Shown: one piece after another, positions 1,772 through 28,360 of the stretch
Layout of the letters: every line of letters begins with the position of its first letter
Position numbering within the stretch: the first letter of the stretch is position 1
Virus record (IMG/VR): IMGVR_UViG_3300044560_000017
Reading direction: 5' to 3' (one strand)
Source: a virus
Length of the DNA: 42,355 nucleotides
Position numbers and translations under genes: made by a program
The notes under the pieces: generated by a model
What the model saw: the letters and a program-made list of their open reading frames with translations, nothing else
Told to the model about the DNA's origin: nothing
Databases searched by the model: none

Positions 1772-2044
1772 CTATTTACTTTTCAGTTCACGTACATCAC
1801 CTTCAACGTTGTCTAGGCGTTCGTTGATAACTTTATGCTCGCTTCTGCTAGTGATGAAATCTTCACGCAGCGTATTTTGCGAATCAAACAGCCGCTCAAT
1901 CCGCTGGCTGCTATCCTTCATGCTTTGAGCAATGTCTTGCAGCCGATCCGTAAAAGGCTTCATGACAACCATCAAAGCCGCATAGATACCCGCGACTACA
2001 GCCAAAGCCAAGGTGATTAATTCGATCCAACGATCAAAGTTCAT
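1772..2044 (-). CDS. Membrane-anchored coiled-coil protein, last gene of the lysis cassette (function unknown)
   Basis: N-terminal TM helix IELITLALAVVAGIYAALMVV followed by a charged helical tail. Its ATG overlaps the endolysin stop (TAATG). Confidence 0.6.
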   Translation of the reverse strand: MNFDRWIELITLALAVVAGIYAALMVVMKPFTDRLQDIAQSMKDSSQRIERLFDSQNTLREDFITSRSEHKVINERLDNVEGDVRELKSK

Positions 2045-2865
2045 TACTTACCACCCGACTTTCTGACCAGCTTCACGTAGTCCTTGTTAGCTGAGATGTA
2101 ACCAACAGCAGTCTTAATCCGGTACACCTTACCATGCTTAACAGCCTTACCATAAATGGTACTGCCCTTGGAGAAGTGAACACGGCGCTTATTAGCCTTG
2201 TCTAGGGCTGGCTTACCATACACGTTAACCTTACTGGCAATCACCTCGTACAGGCCGTTATCAGCCCAGTATGAGGCTTTCTTAGCAAACTTTTTAGATG
2301 TTTTCTTACCTGAAAGCTTGCCGTCAAAGTCATAACTGCAATCTACCCCGTGCCAGTTGTCGGTATATTGCCAAGCGTTGGCATTAGCTACCCCCGGTTG
2401 ACTGACACCATAAGCCGCAACCCAGATTGTCTTATTTACTAACTGGGACCGATTAATCCGACCAGCATTGAACCAGCTACCTGAGCCGTACGTAATCACA
2501 TTCTTGTACCCGTGACTAATCAGGTACCGAAGGAAGACATTAACCTGACTGGTCGTCTTCCAGGGTAAATCGGGTGCTTCAACATCGATGGCAAGTACCG
2601 TGGACTTATCTAATCCCATCCTCTTAACCCAACCCAGAAAGTATTGAGCTTCAGCCGTGCCTCGTCCATGGAAGAAGTGATAAACCCCGATAGTATCGAA
2701 TACTTTGAAGCCATTGGCAATCTGGTTACCAGCCTTGGGACTGAGATACCCGATGCCTTCGGTTAACTTAACCATAATACCTTTTGCTCCCCACTTCTTG
2801 AGCCGCTTCATGTAAGCTAAGGAATCAGCTTGGTACGAGGATATATCAACAATTTTCTTAGTCAT
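2044..2865 (-). CDS. Endolysin: GH25-type muramidase with a C-terminal SH3b-like wall-binding domain
   Basis: N-terminus IVDISSYQ...GIMVKLTEG...YHFFHG is typical of GH25 lysozymes. The C-terminal ~70 aa is SH3-like. Position is next to the holin. Confidence 0.9.
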   Translation of the reverse strand: MTKKIVDISSYQADSLAYMKRLKKWGAKGIMVKLTEGIGYLSPKAGNQIANGFKVFDTIGVYHFFHGRGTAEAQYFLGWVKRMGLDKSTVLAIDVEAPDLPWKTTSQVNVFLRYLISHGYKNVITYGSGSWFNAGRINRSQLVNKTIWVAAYGVSQPGVANANAWQYTDNWHGVDCSYDFDGKLSGKKTSKKFAKKASYWADNGLYEVIASKVNVYGKPALDKANKRRVHFSKGSTIYGKAVKHGKVYRIKTAVGYISANKDYVKLVRKSGGK

Positions 2866-3462: not shown

Positions 3463-6400
3463 TGCTTTTCACCCCCTTTAAGGTAGCCACGTCGTCACGC
3501 AACTTGCTAAGAACCGGGATAAGCAGAACCCACAGCTTTGAGTAGTCCACACCCTCAAGTTCACCGTCTAGTCCGTAGTACAGGAACTTGTCGAGGCCAA
3601 GCGCTTGCAAGTCCTCAGCGATAAGGCCGGGCTGCTCGGCGGTAGTAGCGTCGGGGTTCGGCTCTTTGTTCTTGCTGGCCGAGTCCACAATGTCTTGAAT
3701 TGAGGGCTTGTCAAACCAGTATTTTGGCTTGGCTTTAAGTAGCGCAGCAGATAGCGTGTCAAGGTCGTACATGTCATGAATGTCCTGCTTGTACTTGCTG
3801 GCAGAGGCAACTCGGGCAAGTCCGCCGTGAACGGTAACGTAAACGTTGGCCCCGTGAGAGTTCGTGACGTTGTAAATTGAGTTTGAGCGAACCATACTGG
3901 TTCCCGTCCCAGACTCAAGGTGCAAGTCGTCGGTGGCCCCGTCTGGCTGTACGAGCTTGGTGTGCAGTCGAGTTGGTGCGTAGACGTTTGGTGCAGTGAG
4001 TCCAACCGAGTGGCTTAGCCCGTTACGGTCAACCGTAAACACGTCGGTTCCATTAGAGTTACCGAGTGCAATTTTTAGCCCGTTCATGTAGGTGCGGCCC
4101 ACTAAGTTGCTGCGGGCGCTGTCCTGCATTTCATTCTTGATCCCGCCGGCGTTGATAATGGTCGTGGTGTAGTTGGTTCCAGTCCCATCAACCATGCTGC
4201 CAGCAGTGTTGTAACTAGCCCACGAATTTTTAGAGGCGTCGTAGTATTGCGTTTGGCCGCTAACGACAAGCTCACCTTGAGCCATTGCGACAGTCCCTTG
4301 TGCAGCGATTGGCTGGTAGAAACGTGGGTCTTGAGTAATCGAGTAAGACGACCACACAACCCCACCGTCACCGAGGGAAATTAGCGGCGCGTCAATCGAG
4401 GCCCCGGAAATGTTGGCACCAACCAACTGCTTTTGGAACGGGATAGACGACCACTTGCTTGAAAGGTATTGCTGAACGTCGTCCACGTTTTCAGCTTTTA
4501 AGGAAATCTGCGAGTCATTGACCGCGTTGCCTGTTGAACCCGCAACAGTGACGGTCTTAGTTTCGGTGTGGTATGCAGCCGGGTCACTTCCGGCGTTGGT
4601 ATCAGTACCGTAGCGCGTCCCACTGGTCAAGTCCTTAATTGGAACGTAAGCGATCCCGCCATTGTAAGCCGTGTAGTAGCACCACAGAATACCGGACTCG
4701 ATAACCTTGCCGTTGTAGGTGGCTGACAGTCCGCTATAGGTATAGGCCCGGGTCGCCGCAGTCATTGACGGCGATTGCTTAATAGGGTGCTGTCCCGACC
4801 AAGTGAACCGGCCAGAGGCAGCGACTTTGGTGCCGTCGTTAGAAACTTGCACCGTAACAGTTTTGGTAGTGCTGCCCGTCCCACCGTTCGTGCTGTCGTC
4901 GTGATAGTTCAGGTATTGCTCGGTGTCGGTCACCTTGAACCACAATGCCCCGTCGTCGGCCCCCGTTGGCTGGTTAGGTTGAAAGTAAACATTGTCAGCA
5001 AAGTAGGTCTTTGAAACGTTACCCACTTCGGTGCTGGCTTTCGTTGCCTCGTCGTGTGCGGTGTTTGCGGTGCTCTGTGCATTATCGGCAGCAATCTTGG
5101 CGGCGTTGGCGGTGGTGTTGGCAGTATTGGCCGTGCTCTTTGCAGCCGTGGCGTTCGTGTTGGCAGTGTTAGCCGTGTCCTGCGCGTTGCCAGCGGTTGT
5201 CTGTGCAGTGTCGGCAGTAGTTTGTGCAGAACCAGCTACCGTCTGTGCTTTCTCTGCCGTTGCTTGAGCACTGCTGGCAACAGTTTTGGCGTTGGTGGCT
5301 GTGGTTTCCGCACCTTTTGCAGTAGTTTGAGCAGTGTCAGCAGCAGTCTTGGCAGCCCCAGCAGTGGTGGTGGCCGAGTCCGCTTTTTTAATAGCGTCGG
5401 TCGCGTTTTTGGTGGCGTTCTCTGCTACGGTATGTGCAGAGTCGGCCGTATTGCTTGCTGAAATTGCGTCAGAATGCGCCTGTGCAACGTCTTTTTTTAG
5501 CTGTGTTAGGTCAGAGTCGACATTCAATTTCTTAGGAGTGATGGTCGAGTATTCGCCCAGAGTCAGCTCGTGCACTGAGGGGTCGGACTTGGATTTTGAG
5601 ACTTTGATAACGCGGGCGTCTACGATCATAGCCGGGTTTAAATCAAAGTCAGCAACGCGAAAGTCGTCACCGATACCGCCGCTAATATCTGACCGAATTT
5701 GAACAGTGTAGTTGTATCGAGGGTGGTTGTACATTTTGAGTTGTTTCTTGCCCCACGCAAGCAGACCGGCAGAGTTCTTGATGGTCTCAGAGGTTATGGT
5801 TCCCTCTAACCATGTTGACCCTCGGCCCTTGATGTCGTGGTTGTACTTGGCGTTGGCGTCGGGATCAGTTAAGAATGCAACACCGTTGTTGGCGTCCTCG
5901 ATGGTGGCCCCGTCGTTCCCCAACACGTACAGCTTAGTAACGAGAGCGTCGTCAACCAGTTTGCGGTCAACACCCACCAAGTCGTTGCGGTAGTCCAACC
6001 GGGTTCGTTTAGTGCTGCCGATATGGTCAGACACTTCAACAATCTGGTCGGTAACGTCGCCCACGCTGTCGAGATTTACGTAGCAGTCAACGTCTAGGTC
6101 ATAGTCCGCAGCGAGTTGCTGCAAGTAAGACTGAGCCGAGCTGCTGCCGTCGTACTCTTCCTTGAGAGTCATAATTGACTTTGAATTATACTCAAGCCGC
6201 CACCCGGATTTGGCCAGCAGGTTGGTGAATGCAGTTTCGGCATTTACCGAGTTGCTGCTGAACGCCGTCGGGATAGTCCGGGCAAGTTTCCACTCACAGA
6301 GGTTCTGAGCGTCAAAGCTAAATGACTGGTCAGTTTCTTTGCTGCTCTGGTCAATATTCATCATGCGCATAACATAATGCTTTTGGTTTTCAGAGTCGTA

Positions 6401-23562: not shown

Positions 23563-24483
23563 CTAATGGACTACTCTTAGCAACAACTCATCTCTACGCT
23601 TGCCTGTTGCCGAAAAGTTTTGCTTATTGCCAAAATTAAAAGCCACCTCGGTATGAGGTAGCTTTGTGTATTCACTAATATAAATTTCTTTAGCTGGGCA
23701 TTCATGTAGATACCAATTCTCAAATGCTTTATGGTCGAATCCGTCATAATCGTACTGAGTCCCAACATATGGTGGATCACAGTAAACAACGTCATCAGCA
23801 TCGATGACTAGTTCGCGATAGTCCTTTACGGAATATTCCAGTTGTTCCAGTTGTTGCAGTCGTTGCAGTTGTTGCAGTTGTTCCAGTCGTTGCAGTTGTT
23901 GCAGTTGTTGCAGTCGTTGCAGTCGTTGCAGCAAATCATAACGAGAATTAATATTCATTTGTTCTAGTCGCCATTTATGGAATAATCTGTACTTCTCACT
24001 AATTGTATTAGCATTTAAAGAATAGCTATATAATTGGTCAAATTCCGTCCCAGTGTTTCCGTAAAAGAGGGCCTTAGTTAGCAATAACTTTTCCTCTTCT
24101 TTTTTTCTACCCCACAAATAATCCTTCTGATTATTACTAAATGAATAAGCAGTTAGCACTAACGTTCGTTCGATCGAATCAGGTTGATTATCTCGCCAAT
24201 CAAAAAATTGTTCTCGTGTTAATGCTACGTAATCCATCAAGTTGAAATGCGTCTCATCACTGACTAACGCTCTTAATAGCTCAACCACGGTTTTCCTTCG
24301 GTCATTATATATTACTTCTTCGTATTTTCCAGATGAAACAGCTGTCAAACTAACGCATCCACCCCCACCGAATACATCAACCAATCGTTTGCCATCGGGT
24401 AGGGCTTCCATAATTTGTTCAACCTTCTGTCCCTTGTTGCCAACGTACGGCAGTCCACGCTTCCATTTATCTTTTACTTTCAT
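23563..24483 (-). CDS. N6-adenine DNA methyltransferase (Dam/D12 class, alpha order) with an internal QQL/QRL/EQL repeat insert
   Basis: Motif I DVFGGGGCVSL and motif IV CDPPY. True start is ATG 24483 (MKVKDKWKRGLPYVGNKG). The 478-aa track ORF is a spurious upstream extension through the tRNA region. Confidence 0.9.
   Translation of the reverse strand: MKVKDKWKRGLPYVGNKGQKVEQIMEALPDGKRLVDVFGGGGCVSLTAVSSGKYEEVIYNDRRKTVVELLRALVSDETHFNLMDYVALTREQFFDWRDNQPDSIERTLVLTAYSFSNNQKDYLWGRKKEEEKLLLTKALFYGNTGTEFDQLYSYSLNANTISEKYRLFHKWRLEQMNINSRYDLLQRLQRLQQLQQLQRLEQLQQLQRLQQLEQLEYSVKDYRELVIDADDVVYCDPPYVGTQYDYDGFDHKAFENWYLHECPAKEIYISEYTKLPHTEVAFNFGNKQNFSATGKRRDELLLRVVH
23839..23928. repeat. Ten tandem 9-bp units (cagttgttg / cagtcgttg / cagttgttc) inside the methyltransferase gene
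   Basis: Counted unit by unit. Encodes LQRLQRLQQLQQLQRLEQLQQLQRLQQLEQL in frame. Confidence 0.95.
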
Positions 24484-24634
24484 CTTGGCTATGTTTTCCT
24501 TTCGATTGTAAATTAAAAGCGCCATGCTTCTCAGCGCGACGCTCATGTTTCTTCTTATCAGCCAGCCAACGCTCCAAGTCACGATAGCAGTGGTTCTCTG
24601 CTGGGCTAACGTAGCCATACTCAGTGTGTTGCAT
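24467..24634 (-). CDS. Small ORF (55 aa, basic, hypothetical)
   Basis: Hand-translated MQHTEYGYVSPAENHCYRDLERWLADKKKHERRAEKHGAFNLQSKGKHSQDESKR. GGGAG lies 11 nt upstream. Overlaps the MTase start. Confidence 0.3.
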   Translation of the reverse strand: MQHTEYGYVSPAENHCYRDLERWLADKKKHERRAEKHGAFNLQSKGKHSQDESKR

Positions 24635-24719
24635 GTAACCACACTCCCAACACGATAATGAGTAGTACCATCAGCAGGCCGAATATTAAGTTGTCCCGTT
24701 GATAGTTTCTCATTGCCAT
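24621..24719 (-). CDS. Small ORF (32 aa, one TM helix, hypothetical)
   Basis: Hand-translated MAMRNYQRDNLIFGLLMVLLIIVLGVWLHATH; GGAG immediately upstream. Confidence 0.3.
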   Translation of the reverse strand: MAMRNYQRDNLIFGLLMVLLIIVLGVWLHATH

Positions 24720-24730
24720 TACTCCAAACT

Positions 24731-24756
24731 AAAAGGCCGCCTCGTTTGAGACGGCC
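24731..24756 (-). terminator. Intrinsic terminator closing the tRNA / tRNA-like RNA segment
   Basis: Minus strand ggccgtctc-aaac-gaggcggcc followed by TTTT. Confidence 0.6.
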
Positions 24757-24760
24757 GTGT

Positions 24761-24806
24761 ATGTGATTGGTGTGGAATCGAACCACACGCGGTAATGAGC
24801 CTCCTG
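24761..24806 (-). pseudogene. Degenerate tRNA 3' half (CAT anticodon-loop-like + T-arm + acceptor 3' strand)
   Basis: gtgtgg-ttcgatt-ccacac T-arm plus caatcac acceptor strand, identical to the element at 24922-24949. ggctcattacc resembles the CAT anticodon loop. No 5' half is present. Confidence 0.5.
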
Positions 24807-24922
24807 ACGTGGACTTTTTTATATTTTCTAGCCACGTTTCAACCACCCGTCGACTTACGCTTTTAAGCTTAGCGTATAGAACTCGCATTTTGGTATTGCG
24901 CAATACCGTGGTTGCTGACCAA

Positions 24923-24999
24923 TGTGATTGGTGTGGAATCGAACCACACACGGGGTTCAAACCGCCCTCTTCTGGCAGGCCAACGCCAGTTACAATCAC
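24923..24999 (-). ncRNA. 77-nt tRNA-like element (perfect acceptor and T-arm, non-canonical core)
   Basis: Acceptor GTGATTG/CAATCAC 7/7 bp, U8-A9, T-arm GTGTGG-TTCGATT-CCACAC. No canonical 5-7-5 anticodon arm could be folded by hand. Confidence 0.45.
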
Positions 25000-25063
25000 A
25001 CGATGGACGCTATAGCCTTAGATGAACGGGAGAGTTCATCTCCTTAGGTTTATTTGCGTCCAA

Positions 25064-25137
25064 TGGACCATGTAGGACTCGAACCTACGACCGAACGGTT
25101 ATGAGCCGTCTACTCTAGCCAACTGAGTTAAAGGTCC
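25064..25137 (-). tRNA. tRNA with anticodon CAT (Met, or Ile2 if lysidine-modified)
   Basis: Hand fold: acceptor GGACCTT/ATGGTCC (one T:T mismatch), D-arm ACTC-agttggct-(a)GAGT, anticodon arm GACGG-CTCATAA-CCGTT, variable CGGTC, T-arm GTAGG-TTCGAGT-CCTAC, discriminator A, no encoded CCA. Confidence 0.85.
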
Positions 25138-25149
25138 TTAATGACAATA

Positions 25150-25204
25150 CGTGCAGCGGGAGTCGAACCCGTATCTTCTTTGCTCTTCCGTTGAGCTATG
25201 CACG
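25150..25204 (-). ncRNA. 55-nt truncated tRNA-like element lacking the anticodon arm
   Basis: Acceptor CGTGCA/TGCACG, D-arm GCTC-aacggaa-GAGC, T-arm CGGG-TTCGACT-CCCG. Only ~10 nt lie where the anticodon arm plus variable loop (~22 nt) should be. Confidence 0.45.
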
Positions 25205-25279
25205 TCCATTTCATCAATCGCTTATGTTACCAATTTACACCCAAAATAGTGGTCAAAAGTGCGCAATTAGTGCACGATT

Positions 25280-25705
25280 TTATAAATCATACAGCCCTAA
25301 TTCTTTAGCACAATCATTTATGAACTGCTTTTTTAAATAAAATGCCTTTCTACGGCTTACATGGATCAATCCATTAGTAATTAACCCATCAATCGTATAT
25401 CGTGGCCGTTTTCTGAAATACAGCTCGTCAATAATAATCTCGGTGTCTTCTCCAACTTCATCTAAGCAGTCATCAATAACTTGGCGTTGCTTCTTCAGTG
25501 CATTAATCCGCTTGTCATCATCTAGCGTGATAATTAACCGTTCTGTGCTATCGTTGAACCCGTTCTGTGCCCGACCACCGCCAACATTCTCATCAATCGG
25601 CGTTACCGGATAACGTAACTCCTGTTCGCGCTGTTCAATGTACTTATCAATCTTGGGATAATCACGTAAAATATCCTCTACCGTTCTAATCGTCGATCGT
25701 CTCAC
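25280..25705 (-). CDS. Late-gene transcriptional activator (RinA/ArpU-like, sigma region-4-like)
   Basis: 141 aa, sited at the early/late boundary upstream of the packaging genes. GTG start with GGAGG SD. Confidence 0.75.
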   Translation of the reverse strand: MRRSTIRTVEDILRDYPKIDKYIEQREQELRYPVTPIDENVGGGRAQNGFNDSTERLIITLDDDKRINALKKQRQVIDDCLDEVGEDTEIIIDELYFRKRPRYTIDGLITNGLIHVSRRKAFYLKKQFINDCAKELGLYDL

Positions 25706-26576: not shown

Positions 26577-27023
26577 TTAGTTGCGTTTTAGCAGAGGCCT
26601 TCCCGCCTTCCCCCTTTCTGTTCGTTGGTTCTCAATGTAGTGTTCGACTGTTTCTTTTGACATATCCCCTAAAGTGCCCATGTAATAGCTTGGCGACCAA
26701 AGGTGACCGCCCCAAACTATTTGTTGTGTTTCTGGATGAATTTTGAACCATTCGCGTGCTGAGACACCCTTTAATACCTTGACAATATTGGCCGGCGCGT
26801 ATTTTGGTTTAAAGCTGATTAGCAGATGGATATGATCAAGCATGACTTCGCCTTTCTCAATTTCAATTTCGTTTTGATTCGCAATGTTTTGCAAGATTGT
26901 CAACATCTCCTTTGCGAATCTTGGTGTGTTAAATATTTGTTTCCGATACTTCGTTACCCAGACTAAATGGAAGTGAAAGTTATAAACATATCCGCGTTCG
27001 TGTTTCACGTTTTCTTTTGACAT
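26577..27023 (-). CDS. tnpA: IS200/IS605 Y1 (HUH) transposase TnpA
   Basis: HFHLVWVTKYR (HUH) and WSPSYYMGT (catalytic Tyr), 148 aa. Confidence 0.93.
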   Translation of the reverse strand: MSKENVKHERGYVYNFHFHLVWVTKYRKQIFNTPRFAKEMLTILQNIANQNEIEIEKGEVMLDHIHLLISFKPKYAPANIVKVLKGVSAREWFKIHPETQQIVWGGHLWSPSYYMGTLGDMSKETVEHYIENQRTERGKAGRPLLKRN

Positions 27024-27089: not shown

Positions 27090-27115
27090 AAGTATAGTCT
27101 AAGGAGGTGATATAT

Positions 27116-28360
27116 GTGACTAAGAAAATGTCTGAGTTCAAATACCATTACGGAATTAAAATGCGAATATTCCCATCTCGTGAGCAGAAACATCAGCTTG
27201 ACAACAATATCAACGCAAGCCGTTTTGCTTACAACGAAATGGTGGCTATCGACAAAGAACTATTTCAATTGCGTAAAGTAAAGTGTTACATTGCTTCGGT
27301 TGTTAATCGCATTGCCTACCTGCAGAAACGTAAAAACAACACACAAATGTTGTTTGCACTACATCCTTGGTTATCAGGTACCAATGTAGGTACCGACGTT
27401 GTAGATCAAGCACGACGAGCTTATCAGAGCGCGTGGCGTTTATTTCGACAAGTACACAGATCTGGCACACCAAAGTTCCATAAAAAGCAGATGAGTGGCA
27501 GCTTTCAGCTCCCAAATCGCTATGCTAAGGTTCAGCCGAATTTGTTCAATGGCAGTTGCCGTTTTCTCGATTCTAAGCATGTGAAAATTAGCTTGATTGG
27601 CCGATTGCGTGTGTCTGGGTCACATAGACGCTTGTTTAGTCGTGGCAATGATGTTCGTATTGGAACAATCACTGTCTCGCGCGATGCCACTGGGCGTTAC
27701 TACTTATCTATGCAACTAGGATCGGACACCCCGTTTGTTGTGGGTGGCAAGCAACAGATCTCTCCAGTAGGCATTGACCTAAATACTGACAATTTCCTAA
27801 CTGATTCAAACGGCAACATCGTTGCCAATCCACGTTACTATCGCTCTATCAAGGGCAAGCTAGCCAAAGCCCAACGTAAACTTTCTCGTCGTGCGCTACG
27901 GGCTAAAAAAGAAAATCGGCCGCTTCGTGAAGCTAAGAATTATCAGAAACAACGTGTATTGGTGGCCACCCTCCAGCGAAAAGTTGCTAATCAACGTAAC
28001 AACTTTCTACATCTTGTCTCAACAACACTTATCAAGAACCACGATTTAGTTGTTGCAGAGGAGTTGCGGAGTAAGAATATGTTACGAAACCATGCATTGG
28101 CAATGAGCATTGCTGATGTTGGCTGGCGAACTTTTTTAGGCATGCTGGCCTATAAAGCCGACCTATACGGCCATAAATTTGTCACCGTTAATCCGCGTAA
28201 CACGACGCAAACCTGTAGTGAGTGTGGATATTTGATGTGCGGTGATAAAAAACTGACCTTAAAAGATCGTGAATGGACTTGCCCACAGTGCGGTAATCAC
28301 CACATTCGCGATTGGAATGCTGCTAAAAACATTCTCAAAAAAGGCTTGGCAAGTGCTTAA
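27116..28360 (+). CDS. tnpB: TnpB (IS605 OrfB; RuvC-like RNA-guided nuclease family)
   Basis: GIDLN, VVAEEL and IRDWNAAKNI RuvC-like motifs; zinc ribbon CSECG...CPQCG. Start GTG 27116 preferred (8 nt after AAGGAGG); track start is 27107. Confidence 0.9.
   Translation: MTKKMSEFKYHYGIKMRIFPSREQKHQLDNNINASRFAYNEMVAIDKELFQLRKVKCYIASVVNRIAYLQKRKNNTQMLFALHPWLSGTNVGTDVVDQARRAYQSAWRLFRQVHRSGTPKFHKKQMSGSFQLPNRYAKVQPNLFNGSCRFLDSKHVKISLIGRLRVSGSHRRLFSRGNDVRIGTITVSRDATGRYYLSMQLGSDTPFVVGGKQQISPVGIDLNTDNFLTDSNGNIVANPRYYRSIKGKLAKAQRKLSRRALRAKKENRPLREAKNYQKQRVLVATLQRKVANQRNNFLHLVSTTLIKNHDLVVAEELRSKNMLRNHALAMSIADVGWRTFLGMLAYKADLYGHKFVTVNPRNTTQTCSECGYLMCGDKKLTLKDREWTCPQCGNHHIRDWNAAKNILKKGLASA

What the first reader, a model, noticed from the sequence alone, without database searches (positions are those of the whole stretch)
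24731..25279. ORF-free, hairpin-dense ~520-nt RNA segment with one real tRNA and several tRNA-like modules at the start of the late operon
Seen: the stretch between the RinA-like gene stop (25280) and a minus-strand intrinsic terminator (24731-24756) has no credible ORF. The 478-aa track ORF merely reads through it. In transcription order it contains eight elements: a 55-nt anticodon-arm-less tRNA-like element; a canonical tRNA(CAT); a 57-nt nested hairpin GGACGC...GCGTCC (25005-25061); a 77-nt tRNA-like element with perfect acceptor and T-arm; a perfect 16-nt palindrome GGTATTGCGCAATACC (24892-24907); a TACGCT/AGCGTA hairpin (24856-24876); a degenerate tRNA 3' half; and the terminator. Established: the large ornate ncRNAs GOLLD and ROOL occur in Lactobacillales prophages, typically adjacent to or containing tRNAs, and GOLLD was first studied in an L. 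brevis prophage. Inference: this may be a large structured or processed RNA rather than a lone tRNA gene. Alternatively it may be a tRNA-mimic array with a role against tRNA-targeting defences.
Basis: partly seen in the sequence, partly recalled or inferred. Interest (0 to 1): 0.7.

Follow-up and report, generated by a model that had tools for sequence, protein, structure and literature searches.

The report
Phage array of non-decoding tRNA look-alikes
Between the late-gene regulator and the DNA-packaging genes, this Levilactobacillus phage carries a non-coding cassette with one real tRNA, three conserved tRNA-shaped RNAs that cannot read codons, and a conserved hairpin; it is not a GOLLD or ROOL RNA.

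Summary
Window 25205-24762 (minus strand) has no credible ORF. It contains a 58-nt tRNA-like element with no anticodon arm (TLE1), a tRNA(CAU), a 57-nt hairpin (HP), a 77-nt tRNA-like element (TLE3) and an 85-nt tRNA-like element (TLE4). An intrinsic terminator follows.

A conserved promoter-like box sits a fixed 39-40 nt upstream of TLE1. The 16-nt palindrome is at chance level and is not conserved.

No GOLLD or ROOL model matches the window. GOLLD does lie directly upstream of TLE1 in two related prophages.

TLE1 occurs in 40 viral contigs and in prophage-like loci of at least 12 Levilactobacillus/Secundilactobacillus species. The order TLE1-[cargo tRNA]-HP-TLE3 is conserved.

A looser pattern found at least 77 further distinct anticodon-arm-less tRNA-like elements in diverse viral contigs. 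They are mostly solitary and often lie upstream of terminase genes.

Best reading (inferred): the transcript is cut by RNase P and RNase Z at each tRNA-shaped module, which act as processing handles and are released as tRNA mimics. An anti-defence decoy role and pseudogene debris remain open. I found no published description.

The parts
25280..25705 (-). rinA-family late transcriptional regulator gene, immediately upstream of the cassette
   Evidence: NCBIfam TIGR01636 phage_rinA, 107.5 bits. PHROG 36 transcriptional regulator.
25228..25275 (-). Promoter-like region. It holds direct repeats GTGCAC (25275-25270) and GCGCAC (25264-25259), a -35-like TTGACC (25256-25251), and the conserved box TTGGGTGTAAATTGGTA (25244-25228).
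   Evidence: The box lies a fixed 39-40 nt upstream of TLE1 in 41 loci (one further locus, L168, has 38 nt). Upstream repeats differ between groups of loci, while TTGACC and the box are shared. No sigma-70 consensus promoter was found. Promoter function is inferred.
25148..25205 (-). TLE1: 58-nt tRNA-like RNA. It has a 7-bp acceptor stem, a D arm and a T arm. A 10-nt linker replaces the anticodon arm plus variable loop. No CCA is encoded.
   Evidence: Rfam tRNA 40.9 bits (gathering 29), with a 4-nt insert in place of the 17-nt anticodon arm. The minimum-energy fold is the three-arm structure. 95.2% of cells are paired and 6 pairs change on both sides, against 21-51% paired in slid controls. 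It is present in 40 IMG/VR loci and 14 genome loci.
25064..25137 (-). Canonical tRNA with anticodon CAU, a 'cargo' tRNA. It has a U6.U67 mismatch in this copy.
   Evidence: ARAGORN tRNA-Met(cat). Rfam 63.8 bits. In relatives the slot between TLE1 and HP is either empty or filled by a tRNA.
25005..25061 (-). HP: conserved 57-nt inter-tRNA hairpin. P1 is GGACGC/GCGUCC, P2 is CCU/AGG, there is an AAGGA bulge, P3 is GAUGAAC/GUUCAUC, and the loop is UCUCCC. It starts 2 nt after the tRNA discriminator and ends 5 nt before TLE3.
   Evidence: z = -4.33. There are 21 sequence variants; the consensus structure has P1 and P3, with compensatory or wobble changes. HP is found in about 30 loci and starts 2-4 nt after the TLE1 discriminator in 20 of them.
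24923..24999 (-). TLE3: 77-nt tRNA-like RNA. It has a 7-bp acceptor stem, a 6-bp D stem and a 6-bp T stem with a UUCGAUU loop. The anticodon region is degenerate (CGG/CCG with a loop of variable length).
   Evidence: Cloverleaf minimum-energy fold, z = -2.39. tRNA-Sec model 27 bits, below threshold. There are 13 variants, including a TTTGAA duplication in the 'anticodon' loop and a compensatory CUGG/CCAG to CCGG/CCGG change.
24847..24922 (-). 76-nt spacer holding the 16-nt palindrome and the TACGCT/AGCGTA hairpin.
   Evidence: Folding z = 0.00. The palindrome is at chance level and not conserved. The spacer is present in only about 11 of 44 loci.
24762..24846 (-). TLE4: 85-nt tRNA-like RNA. 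Its acceptor stem is GUGGUUG/CAAUCAC. The D arm is replaced by an ACGUGG/CCACGU hairpin with a loop of variable length. It has a CUCAUUA anticodon-like loop on a 2-3-bp stem and the same T arm as TLE3.
   Evidence: Minimum-energy fold, z = -3.10. 98% of cells are paired in 11 variants, but only one pair changes on both sides, which is not significant. A homologue occurs in L. plantarum phage P1 (L004 2519-2610).
24725..24756 (-). Intrinsic terminator: a 9-bp GC-rich stem, a 4-nt loop and UUUUAGUUUG. It starts 5 nt after TLE4. The stem ends 15 nt, and the T tract 5 nt, before the next start codon.
   Evidence: Terminator scan. -18.2 kcal/mol, z = -4.74. It is conserved together with the downstream small ORFs in about 23 loci.
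24621..24719 (-). 32-codon hydrophobic small ORF directly after the terminator. It is the first ORF downstream of the cassette.
   Evidence: Read from the sequence. The nucleotide sequence is conserved in about 23 loci. No family hit.

Best explanation
WHAT IT IS (about 0.85 confidence). This is a non-coding tRNA island that runs from a promoter-like box to a terminator. It sits at the head of the packaging/late module of a temperate Levilactobacillus phage. It has a conserved core, TLE1-HP-TLE3, plus TLE4 and one decoding-competent 'cargo' tRNA(CAU).

HOW IT WORKS (inferred, about 0.4).
1. The island is transcribed as one precursor from the RinA-dependent promoter-like box about 20 nt upstream of TLE1.
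2. Each tRNA-shaped module keeps what RNase P, RNase Z and the CCA-adding enzyme recognise: a 7-bp acceptor stem stacked on a T arm, a D arm with U8 and GG, no encoded CCA, and a UU(G) trailer.
3. Each module lacks a usable anticodon loop.
4. RNase P would therefore cut at the 5' side of each module and RNase Z after each discriminator.
5. In this reading the tRNA-like elements serve as processing handles, like plant-mitochondrial t-elements. Cutting would mature the cargo tRNA, excise the roughly 57-nt HP RNA that abuts them within 2-5 nt on both sides, and detach the leader from transcripts that read through the terminator into the small ORFs, methylase, HNH, terS and terL genes.
6. The excised CCA-tailed mimics would accumulate as stable by-products. 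They cannot enter decoding, but they could occupy proteins that bind the tRNA acceptor end or elbow.
For: Shown directly:
- tRNA-like folds and covariance-model hits.
- TLE1 structure: 95.2% of cells paired, 6 pairs changed on both sides, slid controls 21-51%.
- The order TLE1-[0-2 tRNAs]-HP-TLE3 is conserved. HP starts 2-4 nt after the TLE1 discriminator in 20 loci.
- TLE1 equals its paralogue TLE0 minus the anticodon hairpin.
- The promoter-like box lies a fixed 39-40 nt upstream in 41 loci.
- A terminator follows.
- TLE1 also occurs in the virulent phage 3-SAC12, behind a consensus extended -10 promoter and in two copies.
- No CCA is encoded and trailers begin TTG.

Broader class, from a looser pattern scan:
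- At least 77 distinct anticodon-arm-less elements with 62 different acceptor stems.
- 60 have 7/7 and 18 have 6/7 acceptor pairs (all 93 distinct matches counted).
- U8 is present in 76/77 and GG in the D loop in 76/77.
- ARAGORN calls none of them, and 77 of 98 lie in loci with no canonical tRNA.
- Terminator-like hairpins are commoner upstream (13/76) than downstream (3/76).
- Small terminase, large terminase and portal are the commonest annotated downstream neighbours.
- Together this places them as 5' leader elements of packaging operons.

Precedent: plant-mitochondrial t-elements lack the anticodon arm and act as RNase P/Z cleavage signals at mRNA ends (PMC5499578).
Against: - There are no expression or end-mapping data. 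Processing is inferred only from the known substrate requirements of RNase P, RNase Z and the CCA-adding enzyme.
- Within the TLE1 family most stem changes are one-sided (G.U, or A.C and C.A mismatches). The window copy itself has an A.C mismatch in the T stem, and its tRNA has a U.U mismatch. Constraint may therefore be relaxed in this copy.
- TLE4 covariation is not significant.
- A pure processing signal should conserve shape rather than sequence. Yet the TLE1 acceptor stem and linker sequences are nearly invariant, which fits a trans-acting product better.
- Three or four handles in tandem are more than punctuation needs.
- The strong terminator between the cassette and the first ORF is not explained by this model.
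Confidence: 0.4

Rival explanations
1. Anti-defence decoys. The excised, CCA-tailed tRNA mimics are the functional products. They would titrate host or competitor factors that attack or sense the acceptor end or elbow of tRNAs. Examples are nucleotidyltransferase toxins of the AbiEii/MenT type, CCA-pyrophosphorylating toxSAS/CapRel enzymes, and acceptor-stem nucleases. Because they cannot decode, they would not disturb translation.
For: - Sequence, not only shape, is nearly invariant in the TLE1 acceptor stem, linker and loops across more than 60 copies with mosaic flanks.
- Several different mimic types occur in tandem: TLE0, TLE1, TLE3, TLE4 and a Leu-like element in phage Lb.
- TLE1 is present in a virulent phage under its own promoter.
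- Placement behind the putative late promoter (expression not measured) would coincide with late-protein-triggered abortive-infection systems (inference).
- Phage tRNAs are known to counter tRNA-targeting defences (PMC10802454, listed).
Against: - No defence system, target or interaction was identified.
- The known tRNA-based counter-defences use full, decoding tRNAs that replace cleaved ones.
- Most elements of the broader class are single copies co-transcribed with downstream genes, a weak design for a stoichiometric sponge.
- No literature support for anticodon-less decoys was found.
Confidence: 0.25
2. Non-functional debris. The tRNA-like modules are decaying or recombined pseudogenes of a former phage tRNA array. 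They are kept only by linkage and recent common ancestry.
For: - Chimeras exist: the 5' part of tRNA(CAT) is fused to the 3' part of TLE4 in L014 and L032.
- TLE3 carries a TTTGAA duplication in relatives, and modules are present or absent between loci.
- The window's TLE1 and tRNA carry mismatches.
- GenBank flags the 3-SAC12 copy as a pseudo tRNA-OTHER.
- tRNA fragments are common around prophages (PMC9897764).
Against: - Decay should break stems at random. Instead the anticodon arm is cleanly absent while acceptor, D and T stems stay paired: 95% in TLE1, and 78 of 93 unrelated elements with at least 6/7 acceptor pairs, against about 1% expected by chance (my estimate).
- U8 and the D-loop GG are retained in 76/77.
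- TLE1 is kept in at least 12 host species and in both temperate and virulent phages.
- TLE4 is kept in an L. plantarum phage, with a compensatory change.
- The elements lie mid-genome, not at attachment sites.
Confidence: 0.13
3. Cis-acting leader that controls the late operon. The structured RNAs between the promoter-like box and the terminator would modify RNA polymerase or the terminator. This would resemble put-type or Q/6S-type antitermination, or attenuation, and would gate expression of the packaging genes.
For: - The architecture is a promoter-like box, then about 480 nt of structured RNA, then a strong terminator whose T tract ends 5 nt before the first ORF. There is no room for another promoter.
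- The same layout occurs in LBR48 and Lb.
- HP has two mutually exclusive conserved pairings: GAUGRAC/GUUCAUY and GGAGA/UCUCC.
Against: - The tRNA-specific features (T loop UUCGAxU, D-loop GG, U8, 7-bp acceptor) point to tRNA enzymes, not to RNA polymerase.
- The cassette also occurs away from any late operon in 3-SAC12.
- Elements of the broader class are rarely followed by terminators (3/76).
Confidence: 0.08
4. A single large ornate RNA of the GOLLD/ROOL kind, or a degenerate relative, spanning about 520 nt.
For: - The genomic niche is the same: a phage tRNA island.
- GOLLD sits directly upstream of TLE1 in L022 and L041.
- The whole stretch folds better than shuffles (z = -3.74).
Against: - No GOLLD or ROOL hit in the window at gathering threshold, or at E <= 10 in the region, while the model scores 230-240 bits on relatives.
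- GOLLD is absent from the other 52 family loci scanned.
- Modules fold on their own and are exchanged independently.
- The only long-range pairing in the fold comes from the duplicated 3' acceptor strand.
Confidence: 0.03

Closest known systems
Plant mitochondrial t-elements (tRNA-like processing signals; PMC5499578 and references there)
   Same: They are degenerate tRNA-like sequences with acceptor and T-arm mimics. Some, such as A. thaliana nad6, lack the anticodon arm. They lie at mRNA ends and act as cis signals for RNase P and/or RNase Z. TLE1 and the broader phage class have the same anatomy and sit at the 5' edge of operons.
   Different: t-elements belong to organelles, not phages. 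Cleavage of t-elements is shown experimentally; here it is inferred. The phage elements keep a full D arm and tertiary-core nucleotides, and in this family they come in tandem arrays with real tRNAs.
Phage/prophage tRNA islands that host GOLLD and ROOL RNAs (PMC12286853, PMC5737381)
   Same: The niche and host clade are the same. GOLLD and ROOL are reported near tRNA islands in phages and prophages of Lactobacillales. In L022 and L041, GOLLD lies immediately upstream of tRNA-Tyr and TLE1.
   Different: The window has no GOLLD or ROOL. Its modules are small, independent tRNA-like units rather than one multi-junction RNA of 600-800 nt.
Polycistrons of irregular tRNAs/allo-tRNAs, and Bacillus cereus tRNA-Other (PMC5389517)
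   Same: [quoted passage not shown] This matches the idea of non-decoding tRNA-like products.
   Different: Those RNAs retain an anticodon arm and have altered 8/4 or 9/3 acceptor/T geometry. TLE1 has 7/5 geometry and no anticodon arm. TLE3 and TLE4 have 7/6.
tRNA-like processing handles of viral or long non-coding RNAs: MHV68 TMER vtRNA-miRNA units and MALAT1 mascRNA (from my own knowledge; not checked here)
   Same: A tRNA-shaped module recruits RNase P and RNase Z to release a neighbouring small RNA. The arrangement TLE1/tRNA-HP-TLE3, with junctions of 2-5 nt, would work in the same way.
   Different: Those systems are eukaryotic and use Pol III or Pol II. HP is not known to be a functional small RNA.
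tRNA-like domains of tmRNA and YrlA
   Same: These are natural tRNA mimics with acceptor and T arms but no anticodon.
   Different: ARAGORN finds no tmRNA. The YrlA model gives 14 bits against a gathering score of 69. There is no mRNA-like domain and no Ro-binding helix.

Membership tests
Canonical tRNA (Rfam RF00005), tested on TLE1 | Covariance-model score at or above the gathering threshold | tested here: met
   40.9 bits against 29. Family copies score 34-50 bits.
Canonical tRNA (Rfam RF00005), tested on TLE1 | Anticodon arm with a 5-bp stem and a 7-nt loop | tested here: not met
   4 nt replace the 17 model positions. ARAGORN does not call it. Alignment with the paralogue TLE0 shows a clean deletion of the hairpin.
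Canonical tRNA (Rfam RF00005), tested on TLE1 | 7-bp acceptor stem, D arm and T arm with a UUCGAxU loop | tested here: met
   Minimum-energy fold. 95.2% of cells paired, 6 pairs changed on both sides.
Canonical tRNA, tested on TLE3 and TLE4 | Covariance-model score at or above threshold, plus a usable anticodon loop | tested here: not met
   TLE3 matches only the tRNA-Sec model, at 27 bits against 47. TLE4 has no hit at E <= 10. The TLE3 loop varies in length. TLE4 has a CUCAUUA loop on a 2-3-bp stem, and the loop differs in phage P1.
GOLLD RNA (RF02032) | Covariance-model match of at least 150 bits to the conserved 3' domain | tested here: not met
   No hit in the window or in 24600-25400 at E <= 10. 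Positive controls: L022 at 240 bits and L041 at 229.9 bits.
ROOL RNA | Covariance-model match at the gathering threshold | tested here: not met
   No hit in the window or in any family locus scanned.
tmRNA | tRNA-like domain plus a tag-encoding mRNA-like domain | tested here: not met
   ARAGORN finds no tmRNA. There is no Rfam tmRNA hit in the region.
t-element-like RNase P/Z processing signal (functional class) | tRNA-like acceptor and T arms without a decoding anticodon arm | tested here: met
   for TLE1. for the broader class.
t-element-like RNase P/Z processing signal (functional class) | Position at the end of an mRNA or transcription unit | tested here: inconclusive
   TLE1 lies 39-40 nt after a conserved promoter-like box. 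In the broader class, terminators are commoner upstream (13/76) than downstream (3/76), and packaging genes lie downstream. No transcript ends are known.
t-element-like RNase P/Z processing signal (functional class) | Actual cleavage by RNase P and/or RNase Z | not testable with these tools
   This needs end-mapping RNA-seq or in vitro cleavage.
tRNA gene fragment left by integration (att-site remnant) | Only one half of a tRNA, at a prophage boundary next to an integrase | tested here: not met
   All three TLEs have both acceptor strands. They lie between rinA and the terminase genes.

The most novel reading that the evidence does not exclude
Anticodon-arm-less tRNA mimics may be a widespread, so far undescribed class of phage non-coding RNA. 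They sit at the head of packaging/late operons, sometimes next to GOLLD or D12-methyl RNAs.

In this reading the phage uses host RNase P, RNase Z and CCA-adding enzyme on them for one of two purposes. One is to shape late transcripts and release small RNAs such as HP. The other is to flood the cell with non-decoding acceptor-end decoys against tRNA-targeting immunity.
Probability: 0.35. Interest if true: 0.8.

Novelty: new variant of a known kind. Interest (0 to 1): 0.6.

Why it matters
- tRNA finders such as ARAGORN skip these elements, and GenBank flags one as a pseudo-tRNA. A conserved phage RNA class may therefore have gone unnoticed.
- If the elements are processing handles, phages would use tRNA punctuation, as organelles do, to shape late transcripts and make small RNAs.
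- If they are decoys, they would be a new RNA-based answer to tRNA-targeting defence.
- They mark the exact genomic slot that carries GOLLD in related prophages. This gives a tractable Levilactobacillus system for asking what the GOLLD/tRNA-island neighbourhood does.
- The predictions are concrete: defined RNA ends, CCA tails, and dependence on RNase P and RNase Z. They can be tested with standard induction and small-RNA sequencing.

Tried and rejected
- GOLLD, ROOL, tmRNA, YrlA and all other Rfam families: only tRNA hits in the region.
- Sigma-70 promoter scan: nothing upstream of TLE1. The promoter call therefore rests on the conserved box alone.
- Coding potential: the plus-strand 82-aa and 49-aa ORFs, the 172-aa N-terminal part of the 478-aa ORF, and the 32-aa ORF have no Pfam or PHROG hit. 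A 6-9-codon mini-ORF inside HP (AAGGAG directly followed by AUG) was rejected. The spacing between the Shine-Dalgarno sequence and the start is zero, and 3-SAC12 copy 2 replaces AUG by UUG while keeping the helix.
- The 16-nt palindrome and the spacer hairpin are at chance level and not conserved.
- A search for a full-length parent tRNA with the TLE1 acceptor stem found none. It found only TLE0, which has a 6-bp/5-nt-loop hairpin, and a metagenomic relative with a 9-bp hairpin in place of the anticodon arm.
- AUA codon usage, checked to support an Ile2 identity for the CAT tRNA, was uninformative: 28 AUA among 471 Ile codons.
- Nine literature searches found no description of anticodon-arm-less phage tRNA-like genes. 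The supplement describing the D12-methyl motif is not held.
- An att-site or integration-fragment explanation was rejected on anatomy and position.
- A cos-site explanation was set aside on the gene order HNH-terS-terL; no cos site was mapped.
Full report
**1. What is in the sequence**

Read on the minus strand, the RinA-family regulator gene ends at 25280 (TIGR01636, 107.5 bits). The following elements come next:
- Two direct repeats 11 bp apart: GTGCAC (25275-25270) and GCGCAC (25264-25259).
- A -35-like TTGACC (25256-25251).
- A conserved box, TTGGGTGTAAATTGGTA (25244-25228).
- TLE1, 25205-25148.
- tRNA(CAU), 25137-25064.
- Hairpin HP, 25061-25005.
- TLE3, 24999-24923.
- A 76-nt spacer.
- TLE4, 24846-24762.
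- An intrinsic terminator, 24756-24735, with a T tract.

A 32-codon hydrophobic ORF starts 15 nt after the terminator stem. It is followed by a 55-aa ORF, a D12 DNA methyltransferase, an HNH endonuclease, a small terminase (Terminase_4) and a large terminase.

ORFs that overlap the RNA stretch have no Pfam or PHROG match. The methyltransferase domain starts only after the ATG at 24483.

**2. Checking each element**

*TLE1.* It scores 40.9 bits on the Rfam tRNA model (gathering 29). Four nucleotides stand where the 17-nt anticodon arm should be. ARAGORN does not call it. On its own it folds into an acceptor stem, a D arm and a T arm.

*tRNA(CAU).* It is canonical (63.8 bits) but has a U6.U67 mismatch.

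*HP.* It folds far better than shuffles (z = -4.33).

*TLE3 and TLE4.* Both fold as cloverleaf-like structures (z = -2.39 and -3.10).

*Spacer.* The spacer that holds the 16-nt palindrome and the TACGCT/AGCGTA hairpin folds no better than chance (z = 0.00). The window has two perfect 16-nt palindromes against 0.57 expected. This one is not preserved in relatives.

*The '3' half'.* It belongs to a complete element, TLE4. Its 5' acceptor strand GUGGUUG pairs with CAAUCAC through one G.U pair. That pair becomes A-U in L031 and L163. TLE3 and TLE4 share a 32-nt direct repeat covering the T arm and the 3' acceptor strand.

**3. GOLLD and ROOL**

Neither model matches the window at gathering threshold, nor the region at E <= 10. 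The test works, because GOLLD scores 240 bits in L022 and 230 bits in L041. In both loci GOLLD lies directly upstream of tRNA-Tyr, a short hairpin and TLE1. The other 52 family loci scanned have no GOLLD.

The cassette therefore occupies the kind of phage tRNA island that the literature associates with GOLLD and ROOL (PMC12286853, PMC5737381). It is not itself such an RNA.

**4. Relatives**

BLAST finds parts of the region in three L. brevis phages: Lb, 3-SAC12 and LBR48. TLE4 also occurs in L. plantarum phages P1, P2, Satyr and Maenad.

A TLE1 pattern found 40 IMG/VR loci. It also found 14 genome loci from at least eleven Levilactobacillus species (plus one unnamed Levilactobacillus isolate) and one Secundilactobacillus species.

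TLE1 is covered in 43 of 44 loci. The rinA gene is covered in only about 17-22 loci and comes with several unrelated upstream repeat types.

The conserved box lies a fixed 39-40 nt upstream of TLE1 in 41 loci, even though the sequence between them has two different versions.

HP occurs in about 30 loci. It starts 2-4 nt after the TLE1 discriminator in 20 of them. In the rest, one or two tRNAs are inserted between TLE1 and HP, as in the window. TLE3, or a Leu-like alternative, follows HP after 3-5 nt.

Cargo tRNAs vary between loci: CAT, TCT, TTT, GTT, GTA, GAA, and a TTA suppressor-like tRNA in LBR48.

In the virulent phage 3-SAC12, TLE1 sits behind a consensus extended -10 promoter. A second TLE1-HP-TLE3 copy lies elsewhere in that genome. 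The cassette is therefore not tied to rinA.

**5. Structure support**

*TLE1, with its paralogue TLE0 and a metagenomic relative.*
- 95.2% of cells are paired.
- Six pairs change on both sides.
- Slid controls give 21-51% paired.
- Within TLE1 proper, most changes are one-sided. The clear compensatory changes come from 3-SAC12 copy 2 and L007.
- The alignment shows that TLE1 equals TLE0 without its 6-bp/5-nt-loop hairpin.

*HP.* P1 and P3 are supported by wobble and compensatory changes. A competing GGAGA/UCUCC pairing is also conserved.

*TLE4.* It is 98% paired but has only one pair changed on both sides, which is not significant.

*TLE3.* It shows one compensatory D-stem change, and its 'anticodon' loop varies in length.

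*Signs of turnover.* L014 and L032 carry a chimera of the 5' part of tRNA(CAT) and the 3' part of TLE4.

**6. A broader class**

A looser pattern was used: a GCTCA...AGAGC D arm, a 6-16-nt gap, then GGTTCRANTCC.

Outside the Levilactobacillus family it gives 93 distinct elements:
- 60 have 7/7 and 18 have 6/7 acceptor pairs.
- 77 pass both the acceptor and the T-stem filters.
- These 77 have 62 different acceptor stems.
- U8 is present in 76/77 and GG in the D loop in 76/77.
- CCA is encoded in only 6/77.

ARAGORN calls none of them. 77 of 98 lie in loci with no canonical tRNA. In a sample of 20 loci, Rfam's tRNA model scored the element above threshold in 15.

Terminator-like hairpins are commoner within 100 nt upstream (13/76) than downstream (3/76). 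The commonest annotated downstream neighbours are small terminase, large terminase and portal proteins. In L081, L095 and L119 the order is mini-tRNA, then D12-methyl RNA (RF02950), then a terS-like ORF (identified by eye; read in L095).

The clean absence of the anticodon arm, with the rest of the tRNA core kept, is therefore recurrent. It does not look like random decay.

**7. Mechanism**

*Shown.* The anatomy, conservation, order and context described above.

*Established knowledge (mine).* RNase P, RNase Z and the CCA-adding enzyme recognise the acceptor/T-arm stack and the elbow, not the anticodon arm. CCA-less Firmicute tRNA precursors are matured by RNase Z.

*Inferred.* The cassette is one precursor that is cut at every tRNA-shaped module. 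This would mature the cargo tRNA, excise HP (which abuts its neighbours within 2-5 nt), and release CCA-tailed mimics that cannot decode.

I rank the readings as follows:
- Processing-handle reading, like a t-element (PMC5499578): about 0.4. It best explains the tight junctions, the conserved order, the loss of the anticodon arm, and the 5'-leader position of the broader class.
- Decoy reading: about 0.25. It better explains the near-invariant TLE1 sequence and the several mimic types in tandem.
- Pseudogene debris: about 0.13.
- Cis-acting antitermination or attenuation leader: about 0.08.
- A single large RNA: about 0.03.

The strong terminator directly before the first late ORF remains unexplained by the leading model.

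**8. Novelty**

Nine literature searches found no description of anticodon-arm-less tRNA-like genes in phages. The library does not cover subscription journals, so this is not proof of absence.

The closest known kinds are:
- plant-mitochondrial t-elements;
- irregular tRNA polycistrons and tRNA-Other (PMC5389517);
- tRNA-like processing handles of viral and long non-coding RNAs (my knowledge);
- GOLLD/ROOL tRNA islands.

I rate the finding a new variant of a known kind, with interest 0.6.

Noticed in passing
L022 182-594 and L041 541-950: GOLLD RNA (RF02032, 240 and 229.9 bits) lies directly upstream of tRNA-Tyr, a short hairpin and TLE1 in two related prophage contigs. In these relatives the TLE cassette and GOLLD share one island.
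   Followed up: partly
L045-L158 (IMG/VR loci): At least 77 distinct anticodon-arm-less tRNA-like elements with 62 different acceptor stems occur in diverse viral contigs. Most are solitary and ARAGORN calls none. Terminators lie upstream rather than downstream, and terminase or portal genes are the commonest downstream neighbours.
   Followed up: partly
L081 772-835(-), L095 349-412(+), L119 532-595(+): The Rfam D12-methyl RNA motif (83-91 bits) lies about 180-290 nt downstream of a mini-tRNA. In L095 it sits just upstream of a terS-like ORF, not a methylase. This is another structured RNA in the same slot.
   Followed up: partly
window 26577-27023(-) and 27107-28360(+): An IS200/IS605-type pair is inserted in the phage about 0.9 kb (1.3-3.1 kb span) upstream of the rinA gene. 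It consists of a Y1 transposase (PF01797, 136 bits) and a divergent TnpB/Cas12f-like ORF (OrfB_IS605 plus the TNB domain).
   Followed up: partly
window 23839-23931: A 9-nt tandem repeat (CAGTTGTTG, 10.3 copies) lies inside the D12 methyltransferase gene. It encodes a roughly 30-aa Q/L/R-rich insert (QRLQRLQQLQQL...).
   Followed up: no
window 25064-25137(-): The CAT tRNA has G1-C72, C4-G69 and C5-G68, and resembles Firmicute tRNA-Ile2 (lysidine, reads AUA) more than elongator or initiator tRNA-Met. One similar phage copy is annotated tRNA-Ile. The window copy has a U6.U67 mismatch. The isotype was not tested.
   Followed up: partly
L014 about 4790-4865(-) and L032 about 2030-2104(+): A chimeric gene joins the 5' part of tRNA(CAT), up to the anticodon loop, to the T arm and 3' acceptor strand of TLE4. 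The acceptor strands no longer pair. This is evidence of recombination between array members.
   Followed up: no
L003 2685-2757 (phage LBR48) and L002 2620-2688 (phage 3-SAC12): LBR48 carries a tRNA with anticodon UUA (ochre-suppressor-like) and an unusual T loop. 3-SAC12 carries a 'tRNA-OTHER' whose anticodon loop is shortened (ARAGORN reports the anticodon as 'ta'). These are further non-standard tRNAs in the same islands.
   Followed up: no
L010, L011, L025, L027, L028, L039, L164, L166, L171 and L176-L204 (TLE0, e.g. L027 549-615): TLE0 is a 67-nt paralogue of TLE1 with acceptor stem GCACGCA/UGCGUGC. Its anticodon arm is a 6-bp stem with a 5-nt loop; GGCA/UGCC changes to GACA/UGUC in L039, and the commonest variant has an A.C mismatch. 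It scores 43-47 bits on the tRNA model but cannot decode.
   Followed up: partly
window 24621-24719(-): A 32-codon hydrophobic ORF (MAMRNYQRDNLIFGLLMVLLIIVLGVWLHATH) starts 15 nt after the terminator stem. Its nucleotide sequence is conserved in about 23 loci, and it has no family hit.
   Followed up: partly
L008 98-272(-): An Rfam hit to the Listeria sRNA rli28 (61.7 bits, gathering 45) occurs in a Levilactobacillus phage contig about 12 kb from its TLE1.
   Followed up: no
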